Source of the DNA: Nostoc punctiforme PCC 73102
GTDB lineage: Bacteria > Cyanobacteriota > Cyanobacteriia > Cyanobacteriales > Nostocaceae
Assembly: GCF_000020025.1 (NCBI RefSeq)
Contig: NC_010628.1
Location: 5,820,001-5,852,000, forward strand
DNA length: 32,000 bases
Direction: 5' to 3'
The notes under the pieces were generated by a model that saw nothing but the letters and a program-made list of their open reading frames with translations, searched no databases and was not told where the DNA came from. Position 1 is the stretch's first letter. Every line of letters starts with the position of its first letter. Below, piece by piece: positions 1-19,309 of the stretch. A program made the translations under genes and the position numbers.

Positions 1-1331
1 GCTCTTTTGTAATGATATGATTCTGATAAAGCCAGATCCAATTGTTCGGCAATAATTTCTGGGCTTTCTTTTGCCGAATCTAGTAATAGAATATAGTGTG
101 GAGGATCGGCAGTGGGCATCAAAGTTTTAAAATTAGTTTCTTGCAAGTTCAACATAGTCAGAGCATTATTTACAAAAGTTTCTTGCAACTTTTCGCCCAC
201 CAAATCACTAATAGCTTGATGTCGTCCGATAAACTCTAAGCAGGCAGTGTGGCGATAGTAATGAGTTACCCGGATGCGATCGCCAATTCGATAACGATAC
301 AATCCGCCTTTCTGCGATAAAATGATCGTGTATTCCTTGCCAATGTTGAGTTCATGTAAACCATGCAGGGAACCAGTATCATCCTCGAACTCGAAAAATA
401 CTTCATCGAGAACTGGCACACATCCCCCAGCGACAATCAAGGGAATCGTCATTGGGGCTTCGGTTGCTAGTAGTCCTTTACCTTGAATTAATACACCTGG
501 AAATTGCGATCTTAATCCTTGCGCTTGATCTGCTGCATTGGCACTATCCCAGCAAGAAATCAGCTTCAAATTTGGCCAAAGTTGCATCCAGGAAATATTG
601 CTTTCGCCCAGGTATTGCAAGCGATGATCTGAAATCCGATTGTGTAATTCTGTTCGCAATAAATCCTGATTTTCTTGAATATATTTTAAATGTACTTGGA
701 GAAAGCTAGGGCTCCAAATAGAAATAATTTCTAATTTTTCAGCCTCTAATAATGCCAAAGCCAGTTGATGTTTAAACAAGTTCGCGTCATGCAGCCGATT
801 AAGTTTATTTGGCATCACCAACCAAGGACGCAAAAACCAACGCAACCAGCCATCTAAGTAATCTAAATCATCCTGTAAATTTTGGCTATCAGCTAAATTT
901 AATTGCGGCGAGATACAAGCATAAAGTTTGCCTGTGGAAAATTTCGGCCCATGTACAATCAAATCATGCGCCCATACACAAAACATCTGATTAAACGATC
1001 GCCGCAAAGATTGAGTATAAGGAATCCATTTTACTGCCCCACTACTGCCAGAGGTTTTTTCATAGAATAAAATGGGTTCGGGAGTGAGGGAAATTTGCTG
1101 CTGTTTCTGATTTAACCAGGGTTCGAGCGCATCATAATCTACAGTTGGCACACGCTGCCAATCATCTACAGAATGAATCCCCAAAGTTTTACCATACTCA
1201 CTCTTGATTAGGCGATCGCAAATTTCCTTCTGTACAGATGTCTGCATTAACTCTGGGTTATCCAAAGCTTGATAAAATCGCCTCGCCGTTGGCGCGAGGA
1301 TTTGCCCAAAAAGCTGAATAATCGGACGCAT
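1..1331 (-). CDS. GH3-family adenylate-forming acyl-acid amido synthetase (3'-partial, continues beyond window start)
   Basis: This ORF is absent from the supplied track because it is open to the window edge. I translated the minus strand by hand from the ATG at 1331..1329: MRPIIQLFGQILAPTARRFYQALDNPELMQ...FYEKTSGSSGAVKWIPYT...GGLYRYRIGDRIRVTHYY..., with no stop before position 1. The TSGSSG nucleotide loop and YRYRxGD are GH3-family signatures. The ATG overlaps the TAA of the upstream ORF (TAATG). Confidence 0.8.
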   Translation of the reverse strand, partial: MRPIIQLFGQILAPTARRFYQALDNPELMQTSVQKEICDRLIKSEYGKTLGIHSVDDWQRVPTVDYDALEPWLNQKQQQISLTPEPILFYEKTSGSSGAVKWIPYTQSLRRSFNQMFCVWAHDLIVHGPKFSTGKLYACISPQLNLADSQNLQDDLDYLDGWLRWFLRPWLVMPNKLNRLHDANLFKHQLALALLEAEKLEIISIWSPSFLQVHLKYIQENQDLLRTELHNRISDHRLQYLGESNISWMQLWPNLKLISCWDSANAADQAQGLRSQFPGVLIQGKGLLATEAPMTIPLIVAGGCVPVLDEVFFEFEDDTGSLHGLHELNIGKEYTIILSQKGGLYRYRIGDRIRVTHYYRHTACLEFIGRHQAISDLVGEKLQETFVNNALTMLNLQETNFKTLMPTADPPHYILLLDSAKESPEIIAEQLDLALSESYHYKR

Positions 1332-1939
1332 TATTGCACCTTTTGATTAGGATAAAGATTGGTGGCTGCTGGTAAATAAGAACCATCATCAATGACTACA
1401 CCAGCAGCAAGATTAGATCCAGCTCCCACAAAAACATTGCTGCCAATCTTGACATTTTTGACATACAACATTAAATTTTGCTTGCGGGGTTTAATGATGT
1501 GAGAATAGATACCTACACCATGCCCAATAACGACGCGATCGCCAATTTCTAACAAACTGCGATCGGCAATCTCCAATCTTGTTGTCCAGTATACATCTCG
1601 CCCCACTTTAGCACCCCACAATCGCAACCAGCATGAAAACGCCCCCGGAATCAGTCGCAGCACTGCTTCCAACACCGGAATTGCAATATAAATTACCTGG
1701 ATTTGATGACTACCCCACCAGGGACTATATTCCTTACCTTGTAGATAACTAATGCCCTCCCGCACAGGATAAACCCGTTCATGCAAGCGGTAAACTAGCA
1801 CTGGTAGCCCATAAATAGAAAGGAACACCCCCAGAATGCTGAAGATGTTGGGTGAATAGGCGAGGTAGACTATTGCTGCCCCAGTTAGCAATAATATAAA
1901 GGTGGGAAATAACGAAAGAATTTTACTTAGAACTGTCAT
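1331..1939 (-). CDS. Membrane-anchored hexapeptide-repeat (left-handed beta-helix) acyltransferase
   Basis: 202-aa ORF. The N-terminus has hydrophobic helices (LFPTFILLLTGAAIVYLAY, IFSILGVFLSIYGLPVLVY). Hexapeptide-like repeats follow (IGDRVVIGHGVGIYSHI, VKIGSNVFVGAGSNLAAGVVIDDGSYL). An ATGA start/stop overlap with the upstream ORF suggests translational coupling. Confidence 0.75.
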   Translation of the reverse strand: MTVLSKILSLFPTFILLLTGAAIVYLAYSPNIFSILGVFLSIYGLPVLVYRLHERVYPVREGISYLQGKEYSPWWGSHQIQVIYIAIPVLEAVLRLIPGAFSCWLRLWGAKVGRDVYWTTRLEIADRSLLEIGDRVVIGHGVGIYSHIIKPRKQNLMLYVKNVKIGSNVFVGAGSNLAAGVVIDDGSYLPAATNLYPNQKVQ

Positions 1940-2688
1940 GAAAATGGAAACAAAAGTTTTTGAAACAAGTTTAATGAGCTAGGAATTCCGATTATAGACG
2001 GCACTTTTTTGCTTTCATAATATGTTCCATGTAACTTATCCCAAATTTTCAGATTAGCCCCATAGTTATAATTATGTATTTCCCGACAATGATGCCAAGC
2101 ATGATCCTGTGGTAAGATTAACCAAGAACATAAAAATTGATAAAGCCAACTACTTTCAGGAATTATCAAGCTGCTATGTCGCCATAAATCTAAGGCAGAA
2201 GTTAGACTTACTCCAAGTAAATAACCTGTTGGATCGGCTAACAGATACAAAAATAAAGTGTGTATCCATAAATAAATAATTAATAAGCTCGTCCAAAGTG
2301 TGTTACGAGAAGTTCCTAAGACATCCATCTGAGTAACAGTATGATGAACTTGATGAACTTTCCACAATAATTTAGTATGTAATAAACGATGATTCCAATA
2401 ATATAAATAGTCAACTATAACAAAACTGATAACAAAAGTCGTAACTAATGATACTTTTAAATATCCTTGTTGAGCGGGTAGTAAATATTGATAAAGCCAA
2501 TAAACTAAACTAGCTTGTAGTAAAGGAATCAATATTCCTTGAATGGTTAATCCTGTAACATCTAGCAACCAATCTTCACGACTTTTAACTTTGAGTTGAG
2601 TTCGTCTAACCTGATTGGTAATAGTCCAACCAATTAATCCGAGAAAAGAGCCAAAAATTAGTAATTGTGAAAAGTTTTGTATTCCCAC
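1936..2688 (-). CDS. Fatty acid hydroxylase / sterol desaturase superfamily membrane diiron enzyme
   Basis: 250-aa polytopic ORF with three histidine boxes, HRLLH, HQVHH and HAWHH, in the canonical order. The start codon is GTG (reverse complement of cac at 2686-2688). Confidence 0.8.
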   Translation of the reverse strand: MGIQNFSQLLIFGSFLGLIGWTITNQVRRTQLKVKSREDWLLDVTGLTIQGILIPLLQASLVYWLYQYLLPAQQGYLKVSLVTTFVISFVIVDYLYYWNHRLLHTKLLWKVHQVHHTVTQMDVLGTSRNTLWTSLLIIYLWIHTLFLYLLADPTGYLLGVSLTSALDLWRHSSLIIPESSWLYQFLCSWLILPQDHAWHHCREIHNYNYGANLKIWDKLHGTYYESKKVPSIIGIPSSLNLFQKLLFPFS

Positions 2689-2716
2689 TTATGATTACAC
2701 ACACTTGATTTTAATC

Positions 2717-2749
2717 AATTACGAATTACGAATTACGAATTACGAATTA
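2717..2749. repeat. Heptamer tandem repeat (AATTACG x ~4.7), STRR-like
   Basis: Direct reading gives aattacg aattacg aattacg aattacg aatta. It lies in the 64-bp spacer between the Rieske gene and the hydroxylase gene. Short tandemly repeated heptamers are typical of heterocystous cyanobacteria. Confidence 0.9.
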
Positions 2750-2752
2750 TTT

Positions 2753-3775
2753 TCAGACCCAAAATGTAACTTTTACTGATTGATTTGGCAATAAACGCGG
2801 ATCTTCTCCACGAGATATAGCTGCCATAATTGACTCTACAAATATATGAATTGTGTCCGCAGGCGTATTATAAAATTGTGTCCCGTATTTAGCGATCGCT
2901 TCCCCCTGAATACCCAAAATTTCCACGTCTTGGCGGATAATATGTTGAGCAGTCCACCGCACAAAGGGACGCGCTAATTTATTCCAGATACCGTAGTTAT
3001 AGGTGACATCTGTGTAAACCAGAGTTGAATTATCAGTTTCTGGAATAGATTGACTGGTAATAAATAAATGACGATTGCGTGCCATTTTATACTCTACAGA
3101 AGTAATGTTTGGCATATAAAAGCGATCGCTATGTTTAATCTCTGCACTCTGTAAATTCAGAAAACGGCTGTACCATCCCAAATTACTGTTTTCGTTGCGA
3201 TACTCCACCAAAACCGAACCATTCCACCGTTCAACAGTCATCTCTAACTTTTGTTGGCGGGAAGTACGGAAAACACCAGGATGAACAAAAGCCGTATGGG
3301 GAATATCAATAAAGTTCTCCGCACAATTAGTAACATTGTTAGCAAAACGGTTAATTACCCGTACCGTCTCCCATCCTGTTTGTCCGTAGTGAGGCATAGA
3401 AAAGGGTTCAAAATCAACGCTTGGTGTATCGGCTAACCGCACATAAACATAGCCATCTTGTTCCTTGGTAGCGTAACACTTGGCTCGACGCTGCGGGGAA
3501 GGTTTGAAGTCATTTCCTTCGGCTGGAACAGCAATAACGTTTCCAACCCCGTCATATACCCAACCATGATAGGGACATTGTAAAGCACCGTTACAGATTT
3601 TACCTGATGATAGACGGCTATTGCGGTGTAAACAGCGATCGCGCAAAGCTACGGGTTGTCCATCTTCACCGCGAAATATCGCTAACCATTCTCCTAAAAC
3701 GGTGCGTGGTAATACCTTGTTAGGTTGTAGTTGGTTGCTAAGTGCGACAATATACCAAAAGTCTGCGAATTGCAT
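2753..3775 (-). CDS. Rieske [2Fe-2S] non-heme iron oxygenase, alpha-subunit type
   Basis: 340 aa. The Rieske motif is CLHRNSRLSSGKICNGALQCPYHGW (CxH...CxxH). The mononuclear iron motif is ENFIDIPHTAFVH (D-x2-H-x4-H). Confidence 0.85.
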   Translation of the reverse strand: MQFADFWYIVALSNQLQPNKVLPRTVLGEWLAIFRGEDGQPVALRDRCLHRNSRLSSGKICNGALQCPYHGWVYDGVGNVIAVPAEGNDFKPSPQRRAKCYATKEQDGYVYVRLADTPSVDFEPFSMPHYGQTGWETVRVINRFANNVTNCAENFIDIPHTAFVHPGVFRTSRQQKLEMTVERWNGSVLVEYRNENSNLGWYSRFLNLQSAEIKHSDRFYMPNITSVEYKMARNRHLFITSQSIPETDNSTLVYTDVTYNYGIWNKLARPFVRWTAQHIIRQDVEILGIQGEAIAKYGTQFYNTPADTIHIFVESIMAAISRGEDPRLLPNQSVKVTFWV

Positions 3776-3918
3776 AGTGGGTGAGAGCGATCATTTCTAG
3801 ATAAGGCTACAGGTTTAGCATAAAGTAATCCTAAAGTTTGCCGTCCGATTTATGATACAGATGTGTTATGCTGACCAATTCTCTGAATCAGGATATCAAA
3901 CTGAAACAGTCAGTCTAA

Positions 3919-4830
3919 GAGGGTGTTTGAAAAGTTTTTAGATGTTAAAGATTATGCTAATCGCCTAACCATAATCCGGATCATGGCAAGATAAATAAAA
4001 GTCTCGGATGTTTCAGGCAATAGCTCATAGTCTCTAACCAATCGCCGACATCCCATTAACCAACCAAAAGTACGTTCAACAACCCAACGTTTTTTGAGCA
4101 AAACAAAGCCCTTGGCTGGTTCTGGTCGCAAAACCACCTGCACAATCCAACGGCAAAAATTCATCACCCATTGCATAAACGAATCGCCATCAAAGCCGCC
4201 ATCAACCCAAATAGTTGTCAAGCGAGATATATTTTGTTTGGAGTGTTTGACCCGTTTGAGAACTTGTTTGCCCCCAGAACGCTCACCAACATTGGCTGCT
4301 GTTACCAAGACTTGTAGCACCAATCCCAAGGTATCAACCGTTATAAATCGCTTACGTCCTTTAATATTCTTTGCACCATCAAAACCAACGGATTGATTAA
4401 CCATCGCTGCACTTTTAACACTTTGACTGTCGATGATCGCTTCAGATGGGCTTGGGTGACGTTGATTTTCAATCCGAATCCATTCCCTGAGACGGTCATG
4501 AATTTTCACCCAAGTTCCGTCTTTACGCCAATTGCGAAAATATCTATAGACTGTCTGCCAAGCGGGAAAATCTCCTGGTAGCGATCGCCATCTCACTCCT
4601 TCTACCAGAATGTAGAAAATCGCATTGAGAACTTCCCACATATCGACTTCACGCTTACGACCACCCGGTTTCGCTTCTGGAATTAGGTCACTCATAAACT
4701 CATATTGTGCCAGGGTCAGGTTACTGGGGTATGCTTTACCCATATTCCTCTCTCGGTGCTGTTTACTATCTATTCACAGCCTATACCGAGAGAGCTTTTT
4801 TACAACTTTTCCGACTTTTCAAACATCCTC
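3919..4830 (-). mobile_element. IS5-family insertion sequence (IS1031/IS427-like size, ~912 bp) with terminal IRs and a TAA target duplication
   Basis: The left IR is gagggtgtttgaaaagt (3919-3935). The right IR is acttttcaaacatcctc (4814-4830), and the two match 16/17 as reverse complements. Flanking taa triplets sit at 3916-3918 and 4831-4833. The element encloses a single DDE transposase ORF. Confidence 0.8.
3952..4743 (-). CDS. IS5-family DDE transposase
   Basis: 263 aa. The N-terminus LTLAQYEFMSDLIPEAKPGGRKREVDMWEVLNAIFYILVEGVRWRSLP is typical of IS5-family transposases. The DDE context is IIDSQSV, WVDGGFDG and VVERTFGW. Confidence 0.85.
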   Translation of the reverse strand: MGKAYPSNLTLAQYEFMSDLIPEAKPGGRKREVDMWEVLNAIFYILVEGVRWRSLPGDFPAWQTVYRYFRNWRKDGTWVKIHDRLREWIRIENQRHPSPSEAIIDSQSVKSAAMVNQSVGFDGAKNIKGRKRFITVDTLGLVLQVLVTAANVGERSGGKQVLKRVKHSKQNISRLTTIWVDGGFDGDSFMQWVMNFCRWIVQVVLRPEPAKGFVLLKKRWVVERTFGWLMGCRRLVRDYELLPETSETFIYLAMIRIMVRRLA

Positions 4831-4952
4831 TAAATAATTATTCCATACCACTCTCAGTTAGCTGTTTTATCAAATAGAATTTGCTATTAACCTTATTCTG
4901 AAAGCAAGTAAATATACCTAAGTTAAAAGATATTGTTCCTCTGGGACTTATT

Positions 4953-6587: not shown

Positions 6588-6646
6588 TAGAGCAATAGGC
6601 TTGGTGATGGGTAGGATATATAAAAACATTGGAGTATTAACCAAAT

Positions 6647-6946
6647 TTATTGTTCTAGTGTCTGAATTGCGATATTAGCTGTTAGGTCTAACTGGCAGGC
6701 TAATCGTGTATTGGGATTTTTGGGTGCTAATGTCTCTAACATTTCCTGTTCATCAAGTTGGGGAGGAGGAATATTACCAATAATTTCAACCAAACAAGTG
6801 CCACAAATTCCAGTCCGGCAACCAAACAAAACAGGTGAATTCTGAATCGTGAGATGTTCAGACAAATTTTCATGACATTCCAGAGTGATAGGGACAAAAT
6901 TGCTACCTGGAAAGGATATCTTACAGAAGTCAGCCATAATACGCAA
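6647..6946 (-). CDS. Plant-type [2Fe-2S] ferredoxin
   Basis: 99 aa. The cluster motif is CRTGICGTC (C-x4-C-x2-C) plus the distal Cys in RLACQ. The true start may be the internal MADF. Confidence 0.8.
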   Translation of the reverse strand: MRIMADFCKISFPGSNFVPITLECHENLSEHLTIQNSPVLFGCRTGICGTCLVEIIGNIPPPQLDEQEMLETLAPKNPNTRLACQLDLTANIAIQTLEQ

Positions 6947-6955
6947 TAATTTTAC

Positions 6956-8161
6956 CTAAACAACACTTTTCCATTCCTCTCTCTGGCTCTGCGTCTCTGC
7001 GTGAGATAAAATCAAATCCTCTTTATATTCAAAACCTTGAAAAGCTCTTTTTTGAGTCGCCAAATATCGAGAAATTGAATTAGTAGCCATCAGCGACATA
7101 TCCCGATTACGTTGCCAAAGATAATCGAGCTTTTCAATATACACTTGATAAGATTTCATCGCCTCCTGATGAGTTGAAAAACTGTACTGTAATCCTTCCG
7201 ACTCCTCAGTAAAACAACGCCGCATCATTTCTTTAGCATCCATGTCATTCATCTCAAAAATAGGCGATCGCAACACCCGATAAATATTGTGATACAACGC
7301 CGGATCGTACCAGAATATCCCGTTAATCGCCGCAGAAAAATGAAAATGATCGCGCTGACATCCCAGCAATCCTAAATTAGCTACCAGTCGCTCAAAAGCA
7401 GTTGGTGGCTTAAGACAAGTGACAACATCGTGAGATATAATTGTCGAACTATTGAAGTGAAAGCTTTCATCCATAAAGTGATAATAGGAGACTTTAGCAG
7501 GAATTGGAGCAGCTTCAGGATGGGGATGTTTTTGATAATAATTGCTGAGTTTGTGCTGTACTAATTTGCCGTTTAGTGTTCGCACTCCCCTGACAGTGAA
7601 ATACTGACAAGCCAAAAAAGTATTATTCGCAGAAATCAGCCCAAAGTATTGAAGTTGAATTTTTTTCCACCAATTTTTCAGAGCATTGGTGTCAGCATAA
7701 ACCATAGTTTCTGTAAAGGGGCCGCGCATGGGGTAGGTAAAGATAAGTTCCCCAAACAACACTTGTTCAACCTGTTTGGCAATTGTGCGGAAAGCGTTAA
7801 TGTGCGATCGCTCTTGGGCGGATTCTAAATCTAAGGTATCGCAGATTAAGCGGAAATCTTCTTGAGCGTAAAGTCCGGCTGCACTGGTTTGATTGAAAAA
7901 GATAGTGGCAATTTCAGCAGAAACAATTTGTGAGTAGTAAGCTACCCAGTAAAGTTGGTTCAAAATTACACGCTGATGTTGACTGGACTGTTCCCATAAA
8001 GGTGTACCATATAGCAGGGAAAATTCCTCTGGATTCCAATACTCGTTTTGACAACCTTCATAGCGAAAATTGCTAACTGCTTCATCCATTAAAGCAGTAT
8101 GATCTTGCTGTTTGTTGCGGGTGTGGTTAATTTGTAATTTGCGATGAATAGTTTTTTCCAT
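6956..8161 (-). CDS. Soluble diiron-carboxylate protein, AurF/CylC-like (oxygenase or halogenase candidate)
   Basis: 401 aa. Candidate ligand helices are VSAEIATIFF, ESAQERSHINAF (ExxH) and FMDESFHFNSS (ExxH). The family assignment comes from motif pattern only. The 3' end (SHAETQSQRE) is built from a dispersed repeat. Confidence 0.5.
   Translation of the reverse strand: MEKTIHRKLQINHTRNKQQDHTALMDEAVSNFRYEGCQNEYWNPEEFSLLYGTPLWEQSSQHQRVILNQLYWVAYYSQIVSAEIATIFFNQTSAAGLYAQEDFRLICDTLDLESAQERSHINAFRTIAKQVEQVLFGELIFTYPMRGPFTETMVYADTNALKNWWKKIQLQYFGLISANNTFLACQYFTVRGVRTLNGKLVQHKLSNYYQKHPHPEAAPIPAKVSYYHFMDESFHFNSSTIISHDVVTCLKPPTAFERLVANLGLLGCQRDHFHFSAAINGIFWYDPALYHNIYRVLRSPIFEMNDMDAKEMMRRCFTEESEGLQYSFSTHQEAMKSYQVYIEKLDYLWQRNRDMSLMATNSISRYLATQKRAFQGFEYKEDLILSHAETQSQREEWKSVV
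6981..7016. repeat. Dispersed short repeat, core CTCTGCGTGAGATAA (copy A, inside the 3' end of a CDS)
   Basis: The sequence ctctggctctgcgtctctgcgtgagataaaatcaaa has its core at 6995-7009. Related copies lie at 14239-14253 (same orientation) and 8170-8184 (inverted, 14/15). Confidence 0.6.
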
Positions 8162-8169
8162 ATCCGTTT

Positions 8170-8184
8170 TTATTTCACGCAGAG
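8170..8184. repeat. Dispersed short repeat, inverted copy (copy C)
   Basis: ttatttcacgcagag is the reverse complement of ctctgcgtgaaataa, a 14/15 match to the core. It lies in the 39-bp spacer between the two diiron genes. Confidence 0.5.
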
Positions 8185-8200
8185 ATAAGACTGATATTTA

Positions 8201-9106
8201 TTACACACATTGATGGGCGGGGAGTGGTTCAAAGGCTCCGCGTTCTTCTAAATTTTGCAGGATAGACTGGGCTGATGTTCCCCCCATGAGCGATCGCAAT
8301 ATTTGTAATCGCGTTCCACTATGGGTTTCAGTATCTAGTTCTTCTAGAATTTGGATTTTTTGCGATCGCGTCAGATGTCCTTTCACTTGTTCGATTGCTG
8401 CAAGTACGCTTTGTGGCCCCACCTGTACCATCAACAAAAACTGTGCCAATACATCAAGAATTATTGTTTGACTGAATGCTGAAACAGTAATTTGATTAAA
8501 CAAGGTAGTTCCAGTAGCGTGATGACGGGATTCAGATTGTAAAAAACTGGAAAAAAGTTCTGCTAAGACTGGATAACGGCATTCCTTTGCTAAACGTCGA
8601 TAATGGCTTAAACCCCATCCTTCTAAAACGACTTGCAGCACAAACAACAAAACTGTTTTATCTGCACTTTCAACTACTTCTGATAGTAAGCGCAAAAACG
8701 GATCATCCGTGCTAGTTACTTCCATTTCTGGTAAAAAATCGCTAATTTGATGAAGGTGGGTAGCTTCATCAGCCGTAAACAATGCATAAAGCATTCGTTC
8801 TTCAATTGTTTCTGCTAAGAGTACCATTTTTGCCATGTAGCCAACGCCTGCTTTTTCTATGAAATATGATTCTTCTAACAGGCTGCGGTTGGCAAGTTCT
8901 AGAATAGCAGATTGTTCAGTAATATTAGATTCTTGAAAAATATTGACTTGATGTAAATTGAAAAATTCAGCATCCCAATAATTTAATTGTGGGTAATTAA
9001 CATAATTATTTTGATTGGGTAATGCTGCTGTTAATATCCGTCGCAAACGGTCATCAGAATCTGTGTGTGGTAGGTCAAAACCGACAATGTTATATTTTGA
9101 ATCCAT
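8201..9106 (-). CDS. Ferritin-like diiron-carboxylate protein (two ExxH motifs)
   Basis: 301 aa. A four-helix ligand pattern is readable: LLEESYFIEKAG, FTADEATHLHQ (ExxH), VVLEGWGLSHY and LQSESRHHATG (ExxH). Its start overlaps the upstream Rieske stop by 17 nt. Confidence 0.55.
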   Translation of the reverse strand: MDSKYNIVGFDLPHTDSDDRLRRILTAALPNQNNYVNYPQLNYWDAEFFNLHQVNIFQESNITEQSAILELANRSLLEESYFIEKAGVGYMAKMVLLAETIEERMLYALFTADEATHLHQISDFLPEMEVTSTDDPFLRLLSEVVESADKTVLLFVLQVVLEGWGLSHYRRLAKECRYPVLAELFSSFLQSESRHHATGTTLFNQITVSAFSQTIILDVLAQFLLMVQVGPQSVLAAIEQVKGHLTRSQKIQILEELDTETHSGTRLQILRSLMGGTSAQSILQNLEERGAFEPLPAHQCV

Positions 9107-10151
9107 GTTCAGGGCTAGGTGTTGATAGGGTTTGAATATTTGGATAATTAACAGTGTCCCAAGTTGCCCAGGTTAAAGCTTTCTGGTGATTAACGTGCTG
9201 AATAAATTCCAGAATAGATTGATCTGCTTTAGTGGGAGTTTTTAAATCAAACTGAATTGTCTGAAATACCTGTGTATCCCCTTTTGCAAAGTAATTACCA
9301 ACTTGCTGAGTTAACCATAACAAACCACGATTTAAAACCCATCCCCAAAATCCCGGACGCTTGGGAGTTACAAGAATTGTTTGCCCTTCAGTTTTACCAC
9401 CTTCTATCATTCGCAGTGTAAATATAATGTAGAAGTGCAGGAAATCCGGCCCTAACGTCACAGTGCCAGTACTGCCATACCAGTAACACATACTATAAGT
9501 AACTTCGTTGCGATATAGAGGACGAATTAGGCGAATTAACCAAGAATCATCCCCTCCTCGTGTAGTGTTGCTGAAGGTAATAGCATTAGGGCTGAAGTTT
9601 TGAGAATCAAATATAATCTCTAAAGGCAGATTGTGTACTGTATTGAAATGGTGAGCATCAATTGCATTAATTAGCAAGACATTGGGATGGCAGTTTTTGA
9701 CAAATTTAGTCCCCAATATATAATCACAATCTGCCTGTTCTAGTTCTGGTACAAAAGGCAGCAAACTTGGCTTTTCTTGTCCCACCCAAATCCAAATCAT
9801 GCCGTACTTTTCTGCCGTATGCCAAGTTTTAATACACACAGGTAGCGGTTTTCCCAAAGAAGGAACATCTACACAAATTCCGCGACTGTCATACTTCCAA
9901 TTATGAAAAAAACAGCGAATTCCATCACCTTCTACCTTACCTTCTGCTAAATGAGCGCCCATGTGTGGACAATAAGCATCTATAGCTACTACCTGACTAC
10001 TAACTCCCCGATAAATTGCCAGATTTCTACCTAGCAAAGTTATAGCTTTTACCTTGCCAATTTTTAATTTTTTTGATGGTAATGTCCAGTACCATCCCTC
10101 TATAAATTGTGTCGGATTGTTAAACTTTGATTGTGGGTTTGTAGATACCAT
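9090..10151 (-). CDS. Rieske [2Fe-2S] non-heme iron oxygenase (paralog of 11158..12162)
   Basis: The Rieske motif is CPHMGAHLAEGKVEGDGIRCFFHNW and the iron motif is DAHHFNTVH. I trimmed the track ORF (start 10208) to the ATG at 10151 (MVSTNPQ...). The longer version would overlap the upstream gene by 52 nt, whereas the ATG at 10151 leaves a 5-nt gap. Confidence 0.85.
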   Translation of the reverse strand: MVSTNPQSKFNNPTQFIEGWYWTLPSKKLKIGKVKAITLLGRNLAIYRGVSSQVVAIDAYCPHMGAHLAEGKVEGDGIRCFFHNWKYDSRGICVDVPSLGKPLPVCIKTWHTAEKYGMIWIWVGQEKPSLLPFVPELEQADCDYILGTKFVKNCHPNVLLINAIDAHHFNTVHNLPLEIIFDSQNFSPNAITFSNTTRGGDDSWLIRLIRPLYRNEVTYSMCYWYGSTGTVTLGPDFLHFYIIFTLRMIEGGKTEGQTILVTPKRPGFWGWVLNRGLLWLTQQVGNYFAKGDTQVFQTIQFDLKTPTKADQSILEFIQHVNHQKALTWATWDTVNYPNIQTLSTPSPEHGFKI

Positions 10152-10156
10152 AAAGA

Positions 10157-10897
10157 TTAAATGAGAACACAATCTTGCACAAATTGTAACGATGATTCTG
10201 ACTCCCACATCCGTTTTCCAGCACGAGTGAGATTGTCATAGTTAATTTCAGTTAAACAAACTAATTCATCCCCTAATCGATAGCCGGGGTTTTTTTCTTC
10301 AAAAAACTGGATATGGGGGTTACTCTGTCTTCCTGTGGGGATTTCAATTAACGCCTCACAGAGAATTTGGGGATGCGGGAAATGGACGATACCAGTTGTT
10401 TCTTGGTATAAACTACCATAGTATTCGCGTGCTAAACTCACCATCAGATTTGTAACATCGGCAGGTGTTGTAACATCATAACGCGGATAGAAATCTTGCC
10501 AAAAAGTAGGGAGAAAACGATAAGTGCGAAAACCAGAGCAAATTAGCAGCCAGTAAAGTTTATTTTCTGCATAGTGTTGACGCAGAAAATTGATAGCGGC
10601 AATCCAACTACGTGGTAGTGTTGTACTCGACCAAGCACTAGGATCAACAATAGTGTCGCCGGAATATACCACACTAATTTTTTCTCCCAAAAAAGTCTTT
10701 TGGCATAACATCAAAGTTGAAAATCCTTTGAGTGCGTTGGATGTTTCATCCCTCAACAACAAAACCCAGTTTTTGCGTTCTAGATCCATTTGAAACCCAT
10801 CCCAGGTTATACCTTGGAAGTGATTTTGCAGCAACGCATACATGGCGATGCGATCGCTTGGCTGCAAATTTTTAACAGGAATCAGCAAACTTTTCAT
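10157..10897 (-). CDS. Conserved-looking hypothetical protein, possible GNAT-like acyltransferase fold
   Basis: A 246-aa ORF with no antisense competitor of similar length, embedded co-directionally between two Rieske genes. I recognise no diagnostic motif. The acyltransferase idea rests only on general resemblance (WVLLLRDE...GFSTL...VYSGDTIVDP...WLLICSGFRTYRFLP). Confidence 0.6.
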   Translation of the reverse strand: MKSLLIPVKNLQPSDRIAMYALLQNHFQGITWDGFQMDLERKNWVLLLRDETSNALKGFSTLMLCQKTFLGEKISVVYSGDTIVDPSAWSSTTLPRSWIAAINFLRQHYAENKLYWLLICSGFRTYRFLPTFWQDFYPRYDVTTPADVTNLMVSLAREYYGSLYQETTGIVHFPHPQILCEALIEIPTGRQSNPHIQFFEEKNPGYRLGDELVCLTEINYDNLTRAGKRMWESESSLQFVQDCVLI

Positions 10898-11157
10898 TAT
10901 TCGTAAATTACCTAGACTCGATTTGTATGATATTTCATTAAAACTTTATCGACCATTATGGTAAATTTACGGTGTAATGTGACAGATTCCAGAATGGTTA
11001 TCTACGCTACAATTCTGTATTCACATCTTGCACCTTTTGCATAAGAGTTGATGTAAATCGCGCACTCTACAAAATAATTAAGATGTATTTAGATTGAGAA
11101 ACAAAACGCAACATTACCAAAGCTTTTGTTGGGTTAAGCGATCGCTAATCTAATGTA

Positions 11158-12162
11158 CTATTCTACACCCCTATTTTTTGACCATCGAGACGGTTTTAGC
11201 TGGTTTACATACTCCATATATTCAGCTAATGGCTTATCAATACTAAGGAGCAACTTTGGATTAAAGCGAATATTGTCGTAAATCTTACCATCCTCATCCC
11301 TGAGCATATAGTAAGCCAAGCGTGTACAGAATAACAAAAACTGACTCAGCAAATATCCCACAAGACCTTTACGTTTTTCAGTTACATAAATCGGTTGAAT
11401 TCTCGTTCTTCCAGGTGCAATTGGAGTATAAGCATATATCATAAACAGTGGGGGAAAAAGCCTAACATCTTTCATCATTGTTAACAACCCAATGCAACCA
11501 TGAGCATAACGCATTGAATATTGATATGTAGAACCCAGAAATCTTTGGCCTAACTTCTCTCTCCAAGTAGTTTGAGGGAATTGTCCCCGCATTGTAAAGT
11601 CTATTTGCGTCCCTAATTCGCTGCGATGTAGCGATAAATCCATTTTGATGTCTAAATGATGAATTGTTTTTAAATGTTGAGCATCAATCCCATTCATCAT
11701 ACAGATATGGTGATGGCAACTTCTTTCAAATGCAATATCAGCTTGTGCAACAATTTCTTTCCCCTTCAATTCATCAAAATCAGTCATTCCCTCTGGTGCT
11801 TCAGCATCTGGATAAATCCAGATAAATCCATACTTTTCCTCTATTGCATAAGCTTGCAATTTAGCTTGACTAGGAATTTCTGATTGACAGGGAATATTTT
11901 GACAACTTCCTGTTTCATCAAATGCCCAATGATGAAATGTACAGCGAATCCAATTACCATCAACCTTCCCAATTCCTAAATCTGTCCCCAAATGAGGGCA
12001 GTAAGCATCTAAAGCCCGTACTTGCCCATCTTCACCTCTAAAAATGGCAATCTTATGACCGCATACTTCTACAGATTTTGCTGTTTTTTTAGGGATTTCA
12101 TGACTAGGACAGGCAATATACCAACCCTTAGCAATTACATTCCAGTTATTGAATATTTGCAT
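11158..12162 (-). CDS. Rieske [2Fe-2S] non-heme iron oxygenase
   Basis: 334 aa. The Rieske motif is CPHLGTDLGIGKVDGNWIRCTFHHW and the iron motif is DAQHLKTIH. The N-terminal region is collinear with the 9090..10151 protein. Confidence 0.85.
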   Translation of the reverse strand: MQIFNNWNVIAKGWYIACPSHEIPKKTAKSVEVCGHKIAIFRGEDGQVRALDAYCPHLGTDLGIGKVDGNWIRCTFHHWAFDETGSCQNIPCQSEIPSQAKLQAYAIEEKYGFIWIYPDAEAPEGMTDFDELKGKEIVAQADIAFERSCHHHICMMNGIDAQHLKTIHHLDIKMDLSLHRSELGTQIDFTMRGQFPQTTWREKLGQRFLGSTYQYSMRYAHGCIGLLTMMKDVRLFPPLFMIYAYTPIAPGRTRIQPIYVTEKRKGLVGYLLSQFLLFCTRLAYYMLRDEDGKIYDNIRFNPKLLLSIDKPLAEYMEYVNQLKPSRWSKNRGVE

Positions 12163-12568
12163 AATTGTTTGATAGATAATTATTTAATATTTCTTGTCGT
12201 TGGCGAATATCATCTTGATATTTACCCGTCAAAATTCTAAATAACATTTTACCTAAACAATAAGAAGCCCGCCAAGAAAATACAGCATCTTGTAAATCAA
12301 TATGGCTACGCTCAAATAAAAAATGTCCGGTTAATCCCAATAATTGAGTTAACGGTAAGCTTAAGAGCAACCAAAAGTTTTGCAACTTCCAAGTATAAAA
12401 GAGTAAACCGTAAAAAAAGAATATTCCCAAAATGTGTAGAGTAATATTAATTGGATGTTGATGTTTAAGAATAAAAATATCCCAATAGTCTGTAAAAGGA
12501 TGATCTATAATTTGATTATTAATTCGATTTCTTACCCTTTGTTTAGGATTAGAATTGATATTAATCAT
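12146..12568 (-). CDS. Mpo1-like / DUF962 family membrane protein (putative Fe(II) dioxygenase family)
   Basis: 140 aa. HQHPINITLHILGIFFFYG and LTGHFLFERSH resemble the H..N...H..G and GHxxFE signatures of the DUF962/Mpo1 family, as I remember them. It overlaps the downstream Rieske start by 17 nt. Confidence 0.55.
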   Translation of the reverse strand: MININSNPKQRVRNRINNQIIDHPFTDYWDIFILKHQHPINITLHILGIFFFYGLLFYTWKLQNFWLLLSLPLTQLLGLTGHFLFERSHIDLQDAVFSWRASYCLGKMLFRILTGKYQDDIRQRQEILNNYLSNNYANIQ

Positions 12569-12603
12569 AAGGGAGTGTATGATAAATCAATGTATTTTAT
12601 ACC

Positions 12604-12768
12604 TTAATAGTCATTATCAGCCACACAAATCCCTTTACATTTAATACCGTTCGTAGCAGTGCGCTGGCAATGAGAACATAGAATTTTTTCGTTTTCTGTT
12701 TCTTGAATTATCTCTATACTAGTGCTTGCCTGTAGCTTGTCTTTTTCGGTCTGAAGTTTTTCACTCAT
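12604..12768 (-). CDS. Unannotated small ORF, 54 aa, with a Cys-rich C-terminus (CxxC-x11-CxxxC)
   Basis: It falls below the ORF-track size cutoff. My translation is MSEKLQTEKDKLQASTSIEIIQETENEKILCSHCQRTATNGIKCKGICVADNDY*. It is co-directional with, and 35 nt upstream of, the first gene of the oxygenase operon. No clear SD is present. Confidence 0.4.
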   Translation of the reverse strand: MSEKLQTEKDKLQASTSIEIIQETENEKILCSHCQRTATNGIKCKGICVADNDY

Positions 12769-13775: not shown

Positions 13776-13843
13776 AAATTTAGAAGCTATGACCAACACA
13801 ACATAAATGTAGTTTGTCCATAACTTTCAGTAAATTGATTGAT

Positions 13844-13859
13844 ATATCAGATATGATAT
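13844..13859. promoter_or_regulatory. Palindromic operator candidate ATATCA-gata-TGATAT
   Basis: A perfect 6-bp inverted repeat with a 4-bp spacer. It lies in the 109-bp divergent intergenic region, about 25 bp upstream of the HTH gene start. Confidence 0.3.
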
Positions 13860-13884
13860 AAATTCAGTATGGAGGAGTAATTTG

Positions 13885-16461: not shown

Positions 16462-16470
16462 TAAATTTAC

Positions 16471-19301: not shown

Positions 19302-19309
19302 TTTATTTG

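What the first reader, a model, noticed from the sequence alone, without database searches (positions are those of the whole stretch)
1..12768. Oxygenase-dense gene cluster with no recognisable scaffold-forming enzyme, a candidate orphan biosynthetic system
**Seen in sequence.** About 12.8 kb of almost uninterrupted minus-strand genes.
- Redox enzymes: three Rieske non-heme-iron oxygenases (each with CxH...CxxH plus D-x2-H-x4-H), two soluble proteins each carrying paired ExxH motifs, a three-His-box membrane hydroxylase/desaturase and an Mpo1/DUF962-like protein.
- Electron carrier: a single 2Fe-2S ferredoxin.
- Conjugating enzymes: a GH3-type adenylating amide ligase, a membrane-anchored hexapeptide acyltransferase and a 246-aa unknown.
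- Several junctions show start/stop overlaps (TAATG, ATGA and two 17-nt overlaps), implying co-translation.
- There is no PKS, NRPS, terpene synthase or reductase in the window.

**Established knowledge.** GH3 enzymes ligate carboxylic acids to amines through acyl-adenylates. Yeast Mpo1 and the FA-hydroxylase family act on fatty acyl or sphingoid substrates. AurF-like and CylC-like dimetal enzymes perform N-oxygenation or aliphatic halogenation.

**Inference.** The locus may build or heavily tailor a lipid-derived or aromatic-acid-derived amide metabolite. From memory and unverified here, genome surveys of CylC-type halogenases mention an uncharacterised 'Rieske-containing' cluster class in Nostocales. 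This locus could be a member of that class, and its product would still be unknown.
Basis: partly seen in the sequence, partly recalled or inferred. Interest (0 to 1): 0.8.

Follow-up and report, generated by a model that had tools for sequence, protein, structure and literature searches.

The report
Catalogued orphan oxygenase cluster of Nostoc
This is the Nostoc punctiforme copy of a gene cluster kept together in hundreds of cyanobacterial species, encoding seven iron oxygenases, their own ferredoxin and several acyl- or amide-transfer enzymes; published surveys already list it, and nobody yet knows what it makes.

Summary

The window matches Nostoc punctiforme ATCC 29133 / PCC 73102 exactly. 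Its 401-aa CylC-like gene has the coordinates of a gene listed in the 2021 survey that defined "Rieske-containing" CylC clusters (36 clusters, no known product). The same context was drawn in 2014 as ferredoxin "fed6 cluster f".

- **Synteny:** gene order is collinear in 59 of 61 fully flanked loci, across Nostocales, Oscillatoriales and Microcystis.
- **Extent:** the conserved unit probably runs to about 19948. It adds a D-aminoacylase-family amidohydrolase, an MgdA-like GT2 and a SnoaL-like membrane protein. Mobile or defence genes are wedged between the modules.
- **CylC-like protein:** it keeps 8 of the 9 halogenase active-site residues, with Gln at the ninth, and lacks a ~55-aa insert.
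- **246-aa unknown:** it has a GNAT fold.

The most likely function is ferredoxin-driven oxidative tailoring of a membrane lipid or lipid-like amide, possibly with chlorination. This is inferred, not shown. The cluster's existence is already known; its function is still open.

The parts
1..1331 (-). GH3-family ATP-dependent acyl-acid amido synthetase. About 67 C-terminal residues are lost at the window edge. The ATG at 1331-1329 shares one base with the upstream stop codon (TAATG).
   Evidence: Pfam GH3 4e-27 and GH3_M 4e-14. Full-length orthologs are 509-511 aa and add GH3_C. The sequence shows TSGSSG and YRIGD nucleotide-binding-type motifs. NCBIfam OlsH scores only 23 bits against a 620-bit cut-off. 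The junction was read.
1331..1939 (-). Membrane-anchored left-handed beta-helix (hexapeptide) acyltransferase, 202 aa.
   Evidence: Pfam Hexapep 2e-8. The best NCBIfam match is the Pls/PosA NRPS C-terminal domain, 5.9e-11, far below its cut-off. PDB matches are maltose/galactoside O-acetyltransferases at 8e-6. TM-like segments at 1-29, 31-52 and 79-98.
1936..2688 (-). Three-His-box membrane hydroxylase/desaturase (FA_hydroxylase, 'sterol desaturase' family), 250 aa.
   Evidence: Pfam FA_hydroxylase 4e-24. The best NCBIfam match is OlsE at 1e-20, below cut-off. His boxes and TM-like segments. The ATGA overlap with the next gene was read.
2753..3775 (-). Rieske non-heme-iron monooxygenase A (340 aa, alpha-only type). 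Ortholog of Synechocystis sll1297 ('pobA').
   Evidence: Pfam Rieske 1e-22 plus VanA_C 2e-12. PDB matches: DdmC 2e-22, SxtDIOX 1e-21, NdmA 3e-20. Motifs. Orthology from Eusebio Table S4.
3918..4831 (.). Intact IS5-family insertion sequence (transposase 3952-4743, minus strand). It is an insertion and not part of the pathway.
   Evidence: DUF4096 and DDE_Tnp_1. 18-nt terminal inverted repeats at 3918-3935 and 4814-4831. TAA on both flanks. Absent from all 80 related loci.
4953..6587 (+). Pentapeptide-repeat protein (544 aa) on the opposite strand. It fills a variable slot between the ferredoxin and Rieske A genes.
   Evidence: Pfam Pentapeptide 2e-57. Found in only 1 of 80 loci, L004. L002 carries a different 231-aa pentapeptide gene in the same gap.
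6647..6946 (-). [2Fe-2S] ferredoxin, counterpart of Synechocystis Fed6 (ssl2559). Presumed electron donor to the oxygenases.
   Evidence: Pfam Fer2 5e-9. Cys43/48/51/84. Follows the CylC-like gene in 77 of 80 loci and in unrelated CylC-like contexts. Table S4 pairs it with ssl2559.
6956..8161 (-). CylC-like ferritin-like diiron protein (401 aa), candidate aliphatic halogenase or oxygenase. Ortholog of sll0266.
   Evidence: Orthologs carry PF28091 'CylC-like'. QExxH and HxxDExxH motifs are present. E83, Q116, E117, H120, H228, D231, E232 and H235 are invariant with the halogenase clade, with Q202 in place of NocO E252. Same coordinates as CP001037.1:c5828161-5826956.
8201..9106 (-). Second ferritin-like diiron protein (301 aa), subfamily unknown. 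Ortholog of sll0265.
   Evidence: E114xxH117, E162 and E192xxH195 are invariant in 16-18 orthologs. Ferritin_2 scores only 18.6 bits. No PDB sequence relative. The AlphaFold model was unusable, pLDDT 41. No profile similarity to the CylC-like family.
9090..10208 (-). Rieske non-heme-iron monooxygenase B. Listed as 372 aa from a GTG start; a start near 10151 is more likely. Ortholog of sll0264.
   Evidence: Pfam Rieske 7e-21. Motifs. Present in 75 of 80 loci. Orthology from Table S4.
10157..10897 (-). GNAT-fold acyltransferase (246 aa) with a C-terminal extension. Ortholog of sll0263.
   Evidence: No Pfam, NCBIfam or PDB sequence hit. AlphaFold2 pLDDT 87. Foldseek against PDB finds NatD and AAC(2')-Ia at 2e-5 over about 140 residues. 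Present in 72 of 80 loci.
11158..12162 (-). Rieske non-heme-iron monooxygenase C (334 aa).
   Evidence: Pfam Rieske 1e-26. PDB matches: KshA 9e-20, SxtDIOX 1e-15. Motifs. Present in 63 of 80 loci.
12146..12568 (-). Mpo1-like/DUF962 small membrane protein (140 aa).
   Evidence: Pfam Mpo1-like 4e-8, 33.9 bits against a 24-bit cut-off. Present in 57 of 80 loci. NCBI names the exact sequence 'Mpo1-like protein'.
12999..14199 (.). Inserted island: a UDG-superfamily-like gene (12999-13799, minus) and an HTH regulator gene (13882-14199, plus). It separates Mpo1 from the amidohydrolase.
   Evidence: Pfam UDG 6e-6 and HTH_3 5e-9. In compact loci the amidohydrolase overlaps Mpo1 by 4 nt, e.g. L063 3975-5699 and 5696-6106.
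14255..15961 (-). N-acyl-D-amino-acid deacylase-family amidohydrolase (568 aa). Probable upstream member of the conserved unit.
   Evidence: Pfam Amidohydro_3 7e-17. PDB matches: PpOngB de-N-acetylase 1e-25, N-acyl-D-glutamate deacylase 7e-25. Directly upstream of Mpo1 in 39 of 61 fully flanked loci, including Oscillatoriales.
16081..17894 (-). Inserted island: PIN toxin (16081-16461), an 86-aa partner (16471-16731) and a 314-aa unknown (16950-17894).
   Evidence: Pfam PIN 4e-10. These genes are absent from most related loci. The same junction holds AAA_15/DUF4435 genes in L063 and L075.
18018..19301 (-). Integral-membrane GT2 glycosyltransferase (427 aa), labelled beta-monoglucosyldiacylglycerol synthase by UniProt. 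A conserved neighbour and possible member.
   Evidence: Pfam Glyco_tranf_2_3 2e-33. NCBIfam PgaC 1e-30, below cut-off. 2 N-terminal and at least 2 C-terminal TM-like segments, like MgdA (PMC3916417). Source names. Adjacent in 10 of 80 loci, and at the opposite end of the cluster in Microcystis L075.
19310..19948 (-). Membrane-anchored SnoaL/NTF2-like protein (212 aa, 'YybH family'), always paired with the GT2 gene.
   Evidence: Pfam SnoaL_3 5e-9. TM-like segments. Found with GT2 in L063, L071, L073, L075 and L079.

Best explanation
**What it is (shown).** This is the Nostoc punctiforme PCC 73102 copy of a chromosomal gene cluster kept together across cyanobacterial orders. It has been described twice, as ferredoxin 'fed6 cluster f' in 2014 and as the 'Rieske-containing' CylC-homolog cluster in 2021. 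It encodes:
- seven O2-activating iron enzymes: three alpha-only Rieske monooxygenases, a CylC-like diiron protein, a second ferritin-like diiron protein, a three-His-box FA_hydroxylase and an Mpo1-like protein;
- one dedicated Fed6-type [2Fe-2S] ferredoxin;
- three acyl- or amide-forming enzymes: a GH3 ATP-dependent ligase, a membrane-anchored beta-helix acyltransferase and a GNAT-fold acyltransferase;
- usually also a D-aminoacylase-family amidohydrolase, with an MgdA-like GT2 and a SnoaL-like membrane protein nearby.

**How it most likely works (inferred).** Reducing power from photosystem I or FNR reaches the dedicated ferredoxin, which feeds the oxygenases. The oxygenases hydroxylate, desaturate or possibly chlorinate unactivated C-H positions of a hydrophobic, membrane-resident substrate. 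The best guess for that substrate is a fatty-acyl chain of a membrane lipid or a fatty-acyl amide. GH3 activates a free carboxylic acid as the acyl-adenylate and joins it to an amine. The two acyltransferases and the amidohydrolase add and remove acyl groups.

The result would be a conserved, multiply oxygenated lipid or lipid-like amide with a physiological role, rather than a strain-specific toxin. The product is unknown.
For: **Identity.** Eight window proteins are exact N. punctiforme sequences, and the CylC-like gene's coordinates match the 2021 survey.

**Families and motifs.**

**Co-inheritance.**
- 356 species genomes encode a close relative of the CylC-like protein.
- 59 of 61 fully flanked loci are collinear, and 34 have all eleven genes within 10 kb.
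- The compact form in L063 is a single-strand operon with overlapping junctions.

**Slow divergence.** CylC-like orthologs are 72-96% identical across many cyanobacterial genera and orders. There is no match on any of 72,556 plasmids.

**Retention after dispersal.** Synechocystis keeps nine orthologs split over several loci (Table S4).

**Membrane context.** Five proteins have TM-like segments: the hexapeptide acyltransferase, FA_hydroxylase, Mpo1-like, GT2 and SnoaL-like proteins.

**Dedicated ferredoxin.** Fer2 follows the CylC-like gene in 77 of 80 loci and also in unrelated contexts.

**Lipid-directed relatives.**
- Characterised CylC, BrtJ and NocO act on fatty-acyl chains (PMC12101540).
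- The GH3 enzyme OlsH makes N-acyl-ornithine from free fatty acids (PMC12493201).
- The best NCBIfam match of the FA_hydroxylase is the ornithine-lipid hydroxylase OlsE.
- The survey authors also proposed fatty-acid-metabolism substrates without a carrier protein.

**Expression in Synechocystis.**
- ssl2559-sll1297 is induced 32-fold under phosphate starvation (PMC4195498).
- The ssl2559 induction depends on PhoB (PMC11126600).
- sll0266 falls under iron deprivation (PMC3516471).
Against: - No product, substrate or activity has been shown for any gene of this cluster class.
- The OlsH, OlsE and Pls similarities are far below family cut-offs and show shared folds, not shared substrates.
- GH3 is absent next to the cluster in the Calothrix/Tolypothrix subgroup (L050, L055, L056, L062, L070), so the amide ligation may not be central.
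- Rieske relatives in the PDB act on small aromatic compounds, alkaloids and steroids, not on acyl chains.
- The phosphate-starvation induction in Synechocystis may be read-through from an upstream chemotaxis-like operon.
- I found no Pho-box excess in the window.
- GT2 and the SnoaL-like gene lie within 10 kb in only 10 and 7 of 80 loci, and the MgdA label is a database name I could not verify.
Confidence: 0.5

Rival explanations
1. A specialised-metabolite gene cluster whose key step is CylC-type chlorination of a free (not carrier-bound) fatty-acid-derived substrate. It would yield a halogenated natural product, as in the other CylC cluster classes.
For: The 401-aa protein belongs to the CylC-like family (PF28091 on orthologs). 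It keeps all six predicted metal ligands plus Q116 and D231. The ninth position is Gln, a variant the NocO study notes in 'a small subset' of homologs. A non-ligating residue there is compatible with the proposed open halide site. The 2021 survey files the cluster among halogenase BGCs.
Against: - It is only 27-32% identical to the halogenase-clade representatives and lacks their ~55-aa insert.
- E252A abolishes chlorination in NocO, and the Gln variant has never been assayed.
- There is no FAAL or ACP.
- Conservation of 72-96% across many genera and orders, chromosomal location and retention after dispersal in Synechocystis are unusual for a strain-specific metabolite.
- antiSMASH and CORASON did not detect this class.
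Confidence: 0.2
2. Tailoring of a polycyclic or isoprenoid membrane lipid (hopanoid-, sterol- or carotenoid-like) rather than a fatty-acyl chain.
For: The closest solved relative of Rieske C is 3-ketosteroid 9alpha-hydroxylase KshA at 9e-20. The best NCBIfam match of all three Rieske proteins is the 4beta-methylsterol monooxygenase SdmA, about 1e-20. The FA_hydroxylase family includes sterol desaturases. The neighbours include a SnoaL/NTF2 fold and a GT2 with a weak HpnI match at 2e-12.
Against: All matches are far below family cut-offs (74 bits against 600 for SdmA) and reflect the shared alpha-only Rieske subfamily. No cyclase, hpn or crt gene occurs in the window or in the 80 loci. The GT2 matches PgaC-type enzymes better than HpnI.
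Confidence: 0.1
3. A catabolic or detoxifying pathway. Rieske O- or N-demethylases and an amidohydrolase would break down an aromatic acid, quaternary amine or N-acyl-D-amino acid, with GH3 conjugating the acid.
For: Rieske A is closest to the dicamba O-demethylase DdmC and the caffeine N-demethylase NdmA. It has a VanA_C domain. The amidohydrolase is of the D-aminoacylase family. Synechocystis sll1297 is annotated 'pobA'.
Against: There are no ring-cleavage, transport or regulatory genes in the conserved unit. Five membrane-embedded enzymes and two acyltransferases are not typical of catabolism. Photoautotrophs across many habitats keep it.
Confidence: 0.07
4. Assembly of an amino-sugar conjugate by the logic of mycothiol, Nod-factor or hopanoid-glucosamine synthesis. 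GT2 would add an N-acetyl-hexosamine, the amidohydrolase would remove the acetyl group, and GH3 or the acyltransferases would re-acylate the amine.
For: The GT2 is most similar to PgaC/NodC-type N-acetylglucosamine transferases, 1e-30. The closest solved relative of the amidohydrolase is a carbohydrate de-N-acetylase, PpOngB, at 1e-25. An ATP-dependent amide ligase and a GNAT are present.
Against: GT2 is adjacent in only a minority of loci, and sources label it a diacylglycerol glucosyltransferase. This model does not explain seven oxygenases. All similarities are below family cut-offs.
Confidence: 0.05

Closest known systems
'Rieske-containing' CylC-homolog gene clusters (Eusebio et al. 2021, BMC Genomics 22:633)
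   Same: One CylC homolog, three Rieske proteins, a sterol-desaturase-family protein, a ferritin-like protein, a ferredoxin, an acyltransferase, DUF962 and no carrier protein. The exact gene is in that paper's list. Listed strains such as Nostoc sp. LEGE 12447/12450, Calothrix brevissima NIES-22 and Tolypothrix tenuis PCC 7101 are among my syntenic loci (L038, L016, L070, L059).
   Different: Nothing essential differs. This copy carries an IS and a pentapeptide-repeat gene. I place a GH3 ligase, an amidohydrolase and possibly a GT2/SnoaL pair in the conserved unit, and I assign the 'hypothetical' 246-aa protein a GNAT fold.
fed6 'cluster f / f-prime' (Cassier-Chauvat & Chauvat 2014, Life 4:666)
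   Same: The order hypothetical - Rieske - hypothetical - hypothetical - fed6 - pobA (Rieske) - sterol desaturase - hypothetical matches GNAT - Rieske B - ferritin-like - CylC-like - Fer2 - Rieske A - FA_hydroxylase - hexapeptide acyltransferase. Variant f-prime has two extra genes between fed6 and pobA, as here.
   Different: That description gave no family assignment for the 'hypothetical' genes and proposed no function.
CylC / BrtJ / NocO dimetal-carboxylate (diiron) halogenases
   Same: Same family (PF28091). QExxH and HxxDExxH motifs are present, and eight of nine active-site residues are identical.
   Different: 27-32% identity. About 400 aa rather than 450-470 aa, lacking a ~55-aa insert. 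Gln202 replaces the Glu equivalent to NocO E252. No FAAL or ACP partner. It has its own ferredoxin gene. Activity has never been shown.
OlsH-OlsI GH3-dependent ornithine-lipid pathway of planctomycetes (J Biol Chem 2025, PMC12493201), with OlsE hydroxylation
   Same: A bacterial GH3 ligase is translationally coupled to an acyltransferase and sits beside an OlsE-like FA_hydroxylase. This is the same logic of N-acylation, then further acylation, then hydroxylation.
   Different: GH3 scores 23-28 bits against the 620-bit OlsH cut-off. The acyltransferase is a beta-helix protein rather than an alpha/beta-hydrolase. There is no OlsG. Ornithine lipids are not known from cyanobacteria (my knowledge, not tested here).
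C-terminal membrane domain of epsilon-poly-L-lysine / delta-poly-L-ornithine synthetases (Pls/PosA, TIGR02353)
   Same: Two TM helices followed by a beta-helix domain align with one repeat unit of that amide-bond-forming domain, at 5.9e-11.
   Different: A stand-alone 202-aa protein with no adenylation or thiolation domain, scoring 41 bits against a 423-bit cut-off.
Alpha-only Rieske monooxygenases (DdmC, SxtT/SxtDIOX, NdmA/B, KshA)
   Same: A Rieske cluster plus a mononuclear-iron motif, with no beta subunit. E-values of 1e-19 to 1e-22 to these structures.
   Different: Substrates are unknown. The three paralogs are each conserved separately across the loci.

Membership tests
'Rieske-containing' CylC-homolog cluster class (Eusebio 2021) | A single CylC homolog in the cluster | tested here: met
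   There is one CylC-like gene, 6956-8161. No second one appears among the window ORFs.
'Rieske-containing' CylC-homolog cluster class (Eusebio 2021) | Two to four Rieske-domain proteins | tested here: met
   Three are present, with Pfam Rieske at 1e-22, 7e-21 and 1e-26.
'Rieske-containing' CylC-homolog cluster class (Eusebio 2021) | A sterol desaturase / fatty acid hydroxylase family protein | tested here: met
   FA_hydroxylase scores 85.8 bits against a 31-bit cut-off, with three His boxes.
'Rieske-containing' CylC-homolog cluster class (Eusebio 2021) | No neighbouring carrier protein or fatty-acyl-AMP ligase | tested here: met
   No PP-binding or AMP-binding hit occurs in any window ORF.
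'Rieske-containing' CylC-homolog cluster class (Eusebio 2021) | The CylC homolog belongs to the clade shared with the PriA-type clusters | tested here: met
   It is 87-96% identical to the homologs of strains drawn in that paper's Fig. S4 and Table S4 (L016, L038, L059, L070). The exact gene coordinates are listed there.
CylC-type dimetal-carboxylate halogenase | Nine conserved active-site residues (E, QExxH, E, HxxDExxH) | tested here: inconclusive
   Eight of nine are identical. The ninth (NocO E252) is Gln202, which is invariant in this clade. The paper notes the Gln variant in a small subset of homologs, and E252A inactivates NocO.
CylC-type dimetal-carboxylate halogenase | Match to the family profile (Pfam PF28091 CylC-like) | tested here: met
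   Precomputed PF28091 is on orthologs of 95-96% identity, and the name is given. The model is absent from my Pfam copy, where only AurF hits, at 20.3 bits and below cut-off.
CylC-type dimetal-carboxylate halogenase | Acts on an ACP-tethered fatty acyl substrate supplied by an adjacent FAAL and ACP | tested here: not met
   No FAAL or ACP gene occurs in the window or in the syntenic loci.
CylC-type dimetal-carboxylate halogenase | Iron-dependent chlorination activity with a diiron cofactor | not testable with these tools
   This needs enzyme assays and Mossbauer spectroscopy. The homolog sll0266 was only screened for expression and solubility.
GH3 acyl-acid amido synthetase | GH3 N-terminal, middle and C-terminal domains above Pfam cut-offs | tested here: met
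   The window fragment scores 95.6 bits for GH3 and 52.8 bits for GH3_M. The full-length ortholog in L063 adds GH3_C at 29.5 bits.
OlsH lyso-ornithine-lipid synthetase (NCBIfam NF052613 equivalog) | Score at or above the 620-bit equivalog cut-off | tested here: not met
   23.3 bits for the window fragment and 27.6 bits for full-length L063.
Rieske non-heme-iron oxygenase, alpha subunit | CxH-x(15-17)-CxxH Rieske motif plus D-x2-H-x4-H mononuclear iron motif | tested here: met
   Both motifs are in all three proteins.
Mpo1-like / DUF962 | Pfam PF06127 above the gathering score | tested here: met
   33.9 bits against a 24-bit cut-off. Dioxygenase activity was not testable.
GNAT acyltransferase superfamily (246-aa protein) | GNAT fold | tested here: met
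   The AlphaFold2 model has pLDDT 87. Foldseek against PDB gives probability 1.00 to NatD and AAC(2')-Ia over about 140 residues. No sequence-profile membership.
MgdA (beta-monoglucosyldiacylglycerol synthase), for the GT2 at 18018-19301 | Orthology to Sll1377 and UDP-glucose:diacylglycerol activity | tested here: inconclusive
   UniProt and JGI give that name to the exact sequence. The TM layout resembles that of MgdA. I could not align it with Sll1377 or check for a second copy in the genome.

The most novel reading that the evidence does not exclude
The cluster is not a halogenase 'BGC' in the usual sense. It would be a conserved, Fed6-driven pathway that makes or remodels an undescribed phosphorus-free membrane lipid of cyanobacteria. 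That lipid would be a multiply hydroxylated (perhaps chlorinated) acyl-amide or glycolipid, linked to MgdA-type glycolipid synthesis and switched on under phosphate stress.
Probability: 0.2. Interest if true: 0.8.

Novelty: already known. Interest (0 to 1): 0.4.

Why it matters
This is the most abundant class of gene context for CylC-type enzymes in cyanobacteria: 36 of 95 clusters in the 2021 survey, and relatives in 356 species genomes here. It is still without a product.

Identifying the product would settle two questions. The first is whether this clade of diiron enzymes halogenates free, non-carrier-bound substrates, which would be valuable for biocatalysis. The second is whether cyanobacteria make a widespread oxygenated lipid that has gone unnoticed.

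The copy studied here sits in Nostoc punctiforme PCC 73102, and Synechocystis has orthologs of nine of the genes. My understanding is that both are established genetic model strains; I did not check this here. If so, the question can be tested directly by knockout and lipidomics.

Tried and rejected
- **Pho box.** I searched for a PhoB/SphR-type Pho box (YTTAAYYW repeats). There were 6 matches against 10.3 expected from shuffles, so no signal.
- **Promoters and terminators.** The scan gave counts equal to shuffles and was uninformative.
- **RNA features.** Rfam and tRNA scans of the whole window found nothing.
- **Plasmids.** The core 5.9 kb has no match in 72,556 plasmid records.
- **PDB sequence and profile searches.**
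  - The 246-aa protein has no relative.
  - The 301-aa protein has none either.
- **AlphaFold2 of the 301-aa ferritin-like protein.** With 18 orthologs the model reached only pLDDT 41. It was unusable, so I ran no fold search on it.
- **Profile comparison.** The ferritin-like and CylC-like families show no relationship, probability 1.3%. I rejected the paralog idea.
- **Npun_F3358.** This locus tag from the NocO paper proved to be the other CylC homolog of this genome, the PKS-linked one.
- **Second IS copy.** The transposase remnant at 24923-25757 is not a copy of the IS at 3918-4831.
- **Synechocystis locus tags.** Literature searches gave only expression data and no function.
- **Fed6 essentiality.** The reports conflict: 'essential' in PMC4284462, fully deleted in PMC8887894. 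I did not use it as evidence.

Full report
**Source of the window.** Eight window proteins are exact matches to Nostoc punctiforme ATCC 29133 / PCC 73102 proteins on the 8,234,322-bp chromosome: ACC83043-45, ACC83049, ACC83054, ACC83058 and ACC83062-63. The 401-aa gene at 6956-8161 (1206 nt, minus strand) has the length and strand of CP001037.1:c5828161-5826956. That entry appears in the supplementary table of cylC homologs in Eusebio et al. 2021. This exact locus has therefore already been catalogued.

**The observation.**
- GH3 ligase, 1-1331, truncated by the window edge: GH3 4e-27, GH3_M 4e-14.
- Hexapeptide acyltransferase, 1331-1939.
- FA_hydroxylase, 1936-2688: 4e-24.
- Rieske proteins at 2753-3775, 9090-10208 and 11158-12162.
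- Fer2 ferredoxin, 6647-6946.
- Two ExxH-pair proteins, 6956-8161 and 8201-9106.
- A 246-aa protein with no family hit, 10157-10897.
- An Mpo1-like protein, 12146-12568.

A regex check found the Rieske and mononuclear-iron motifs in all three Rieske proteins. It also found paired ExxH in both diiron proteins, three His boxes in the FA_hydroxylase and the four ferredoxin cysteines. The TAATG and ATGA junctions were read directly. The two 17-nt overlaps follow from the ORF coordinates. No PKS, NRPS, terpene synthase or ferredoxin reductase occurs in the 32 kb.

An intact IS5-family element lies at 3918-4831. It has 18-nt terminal inverted repeats and TAA on both flanks. A 544-aa pentapeptide-repeat gene lies on the plus strand at 4953-6587.

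**Synteny.** An alignment of CylC-like orthologs was used to scan one genome per species. 356 genomes encode a close relative, and the best 80 loci were fetched. I ran tblastn of the window proteins against those loci.
- Occurrence in the 80 loci: Fer2 77, ferritin-like 77, Rieske B 75, the 246-aa protein 72, Rieske A 68, Rieske C 63, Mpo1 57, FA_hydroxylase 57, hexapeptide acyltransferase 56, GH3 50. Many of the misses come from truncated loci.
- Among the 61 loci with both 10-kb flanks, 59 are collinear and 34 hold all eleven genes. The eleven genes span 10.4-15.7 kb.
- The loci cover Nostocales, Oscillatoriales (Microseira, Aerosakkonema, Kamptonema, Planktothrix, Microcoleus), Microcystis, Coleofasciculus and Scytonema.
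- In seven loci the Rieske A / FA_hydroxylase / acyltransferase / GH3 module is absent within 10 kb. In a Calothrix/Tolypothrix subgroup GH3 alone is missing. The cluster therefore behaves as two modules.
- In Synechocystis nine orthologs are dispersed but retained: sll0263-0266, ssl2559-sll1297, sll1510-1511 and sll1849.

**True extent.**
- A D-aminoacylase-family amidohydrolase (14255-15961) lies directly upstream of Mpo1 in 39 of 61 loci. In L063 it overlaps Mpo1 by 4 nt.
- A GT2 (18018-19301) and a SnoaL-like membrane protein (19310-19948) lie further upstream in several genera. In Microcystis they sit at the opposite end, after GH3.
- Three stretches of the window lie between conserved modules:
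  - the IS and the pentapeptide-repeat gene;
  - a UDG-like gene with an HTH gene (12999-14199);
  - a PIN toxin pair with a 314-aa unknown (16081-17894).
- The IS and the PIN-region genes are absent from almost all related loci. The UDG-like and HTH genes recur in 7 and 21 of the 80 loci and are missing from the compact operon of L063.
- Other genomes hold AAA_15/DUF4435 genes at the amidohydrolase-GT2 junction.

**The CylC-like protein.**
- Its orthologs carry Pfam PF28091 'CylC-like'.
- The whole superfamily is small: 144 representatives at 50% identity among 1.84 billion proteins.
- The NocO study defines nine active-site residues in QExxH and HxxDExxH motifs.
- In an alignment with twelve representatives, E83, Q116, E117, H120, H228, D231, E232 and H235 are invariant. 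The position of NocO E252 is Gln202 in this clade.
- The clade also lacks a ~55-aa insert and is 27-32% identical to the halogenase clade.
- The paper notes the Gln variant in 'a small subset' of homologs. It proposes that this Glu sits outside the first coordination sphere and leaves an open site for chloride. It also reports that E252A is inactive.
- Halogenase activity is therefore plausible but untested. The homolog sll0266 was only screened for solubility.
- CylC-like genes in quite different contexts are also followed by their own Fer2 gene. This marks the ferredoxin as a dedicated partner.

**The two unassigned proteins.**
- The 246-aa protein has no sequence-level family. It gives a confident AlphaFold2 model with pLDDT 87, and its first ~140 residues match GNAT acyltransferases.
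- The 301-aa protein has the invariant E..ExxH..E..ExxH signature of ferritin-like diiron proteins. It could not be modelled, with pLDDT 41, and shows no profile similarity to the CylC-like family.

**Other leads.**
- The best NCBIfam match of the hexapeptide acyltransferase is one repeat unit of the membrane-embedded C-terminal domain of poly-lysine/poly-ornithine synthetases, 5.9e-11.
- The best NCBIfam match of the FA_hydroxylase is the ornithine-lipid hydroxylase OlsE.
- GH3 enzymes can make N-acyl amino acid lipids (OlsH), but this GH3 is not an OlsH equivalog.
- The amidohydrolase is nearest to a carbohydrate de-N-acetylase and to N-acyl-D-glutamate deacylase.
- The Rieske proteins are nearest to DdmC, SxtT/SxtDIOX, NdmA and KshA.
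- Sources label the GT2 a beta-monoglucosyldiacylglycerol synthase. Its TM layout resembles that of MgdA. I could not verify the orthology.
- Five of the fourteen proteins have TM-like segments.

**Literature.**
- Eusebio et al. 2021 describe the class and state that it has no known product.
- Cassier-Chauvat and Chauvat 2014 drew the same context as fed6 'cluster f/f-prime'.
- In Synechocystis the ssl2559-sll1297 transcript rises 32-fold under phosphate starvation. The ssl2559 induction depends on PhoB.
- sll0266 falls under iron deprivation.
- Reports on Fed6 essentiality conflict.
- No paper in the library assigns a product or activity.

**Interpretation.** The composition, co-inheritance, chromosomal location and slow divergence of the cluster are shown. 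The function is inferred.
- I favour ferredoxin-driven oxidative tailoring of a membrane-resident, probably fatty-acyl-containing substrate, with amide and ester acylation steps (confidence 0.5).
- The rivals are:
  - a halogenated specialised metabolite (0.2);
  - tailoring of an isoprenoid lipid (0.1);
  - catabolism (0.07);
  - an amino-sugar conjugate (0.05).
- Chance juxtaposition is excluded by the synteny.

**Verdict.** The cluster is a published known unknown, so its existence is not novel. The open question of its product remains interesting and can be tested in model strains.

Noticed in passing
window 3918-4831: An intact IS5-family insertion sequence. It has a 263-aa transposase (DUF4096 plus DDE_Tnp_1), 18-nt terminal inverted repeats and a TAA on each flank, consistent with a 3-bp target duplication. 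It sits 143 bp upstream of the Rieske A start codon, is absent from all 80 related loci, and has no second copy in the window.
   Followed up: yes
window 4953-6587; L002 12462-13157; L004 about 11578-13200: The gap between the ferredoxin and Rieske A genes is a variable slot. In Nostoc it holds different pentapeptide-repeat genes, in either orientation. Compact genomes such as L063 and L079 have no gap there. This matches the 'cluster f-prime' variant drawn in 2014.
   Followed up: partly
window 12999-14199 and 16081-17894; L063 1889-3848; L075 4313-6656: The junctions between conserved modules repeatedly hold mobile or defence-type genes. In the window these are a UDG-like gene with an HTH gene, and a PIN toxin with an 86-aa partner and a 314-aa unknown. 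In Microseira and Microcystis they are AAA_15/AAA_21 and DUF4435 genes. The cluster appears to tolerate, or attract, insertions between modules.
   Followed up: partly
L083 5898-14791 and L084 (metagenome contigs): A 391-aa CylC-like protein lies next to an ABC transporter, three ATP-grasp MvdD-like ligases and a 54-aa ORF. This looks like a graspetide (microviridin-type) peptide cluster, a context not among the seven classes of the 2021 survey.
   Followed up: no
L081 10001-11511; L082 10001-11576; L085 393-3914: CylC-like genes outside the Rieske class are also followed directly by a ~95-aa Fer2 gene. One case lies next to a PfaD/ketosynthase cluster on NCBI record CP017599.1 (L082). L085 shows a minimal core of Rieske, ferritin-like, CylC-like and Fer2.
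   Followed up: partly
window 18018-19948: UniProt and JGI label the GT2 as beta-monoglucosyldiacylglycerol synthase, which performs the first step of cyanobacterial galactolipid synthesis. It is always paired with a membrane-anchored SnoaL-like protein of unknown role. I could not check whether this is the housekeeping MgdA.
   Followed up: partly
window 24923-25757: Two adjacent minus-strand ORFs (172 and 120 aa) with transposase DDE domains, probably a frameshifted IS remnant. It is unrelated in sequence to the IS at 3918-4831.
   Followed up: partly
window 20371-24920: Beyond the cluster lie a GlgX-type debranching enzyme (CBM_48 plus alpha-amylase domains, 20371-22500) and a GT4 / sucrose-synthase-like glycosyltransferase (23397-24920). 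These are ordinary carbohydrate metabolism genes and are not conserved next to the cluster.
   Followed up: no
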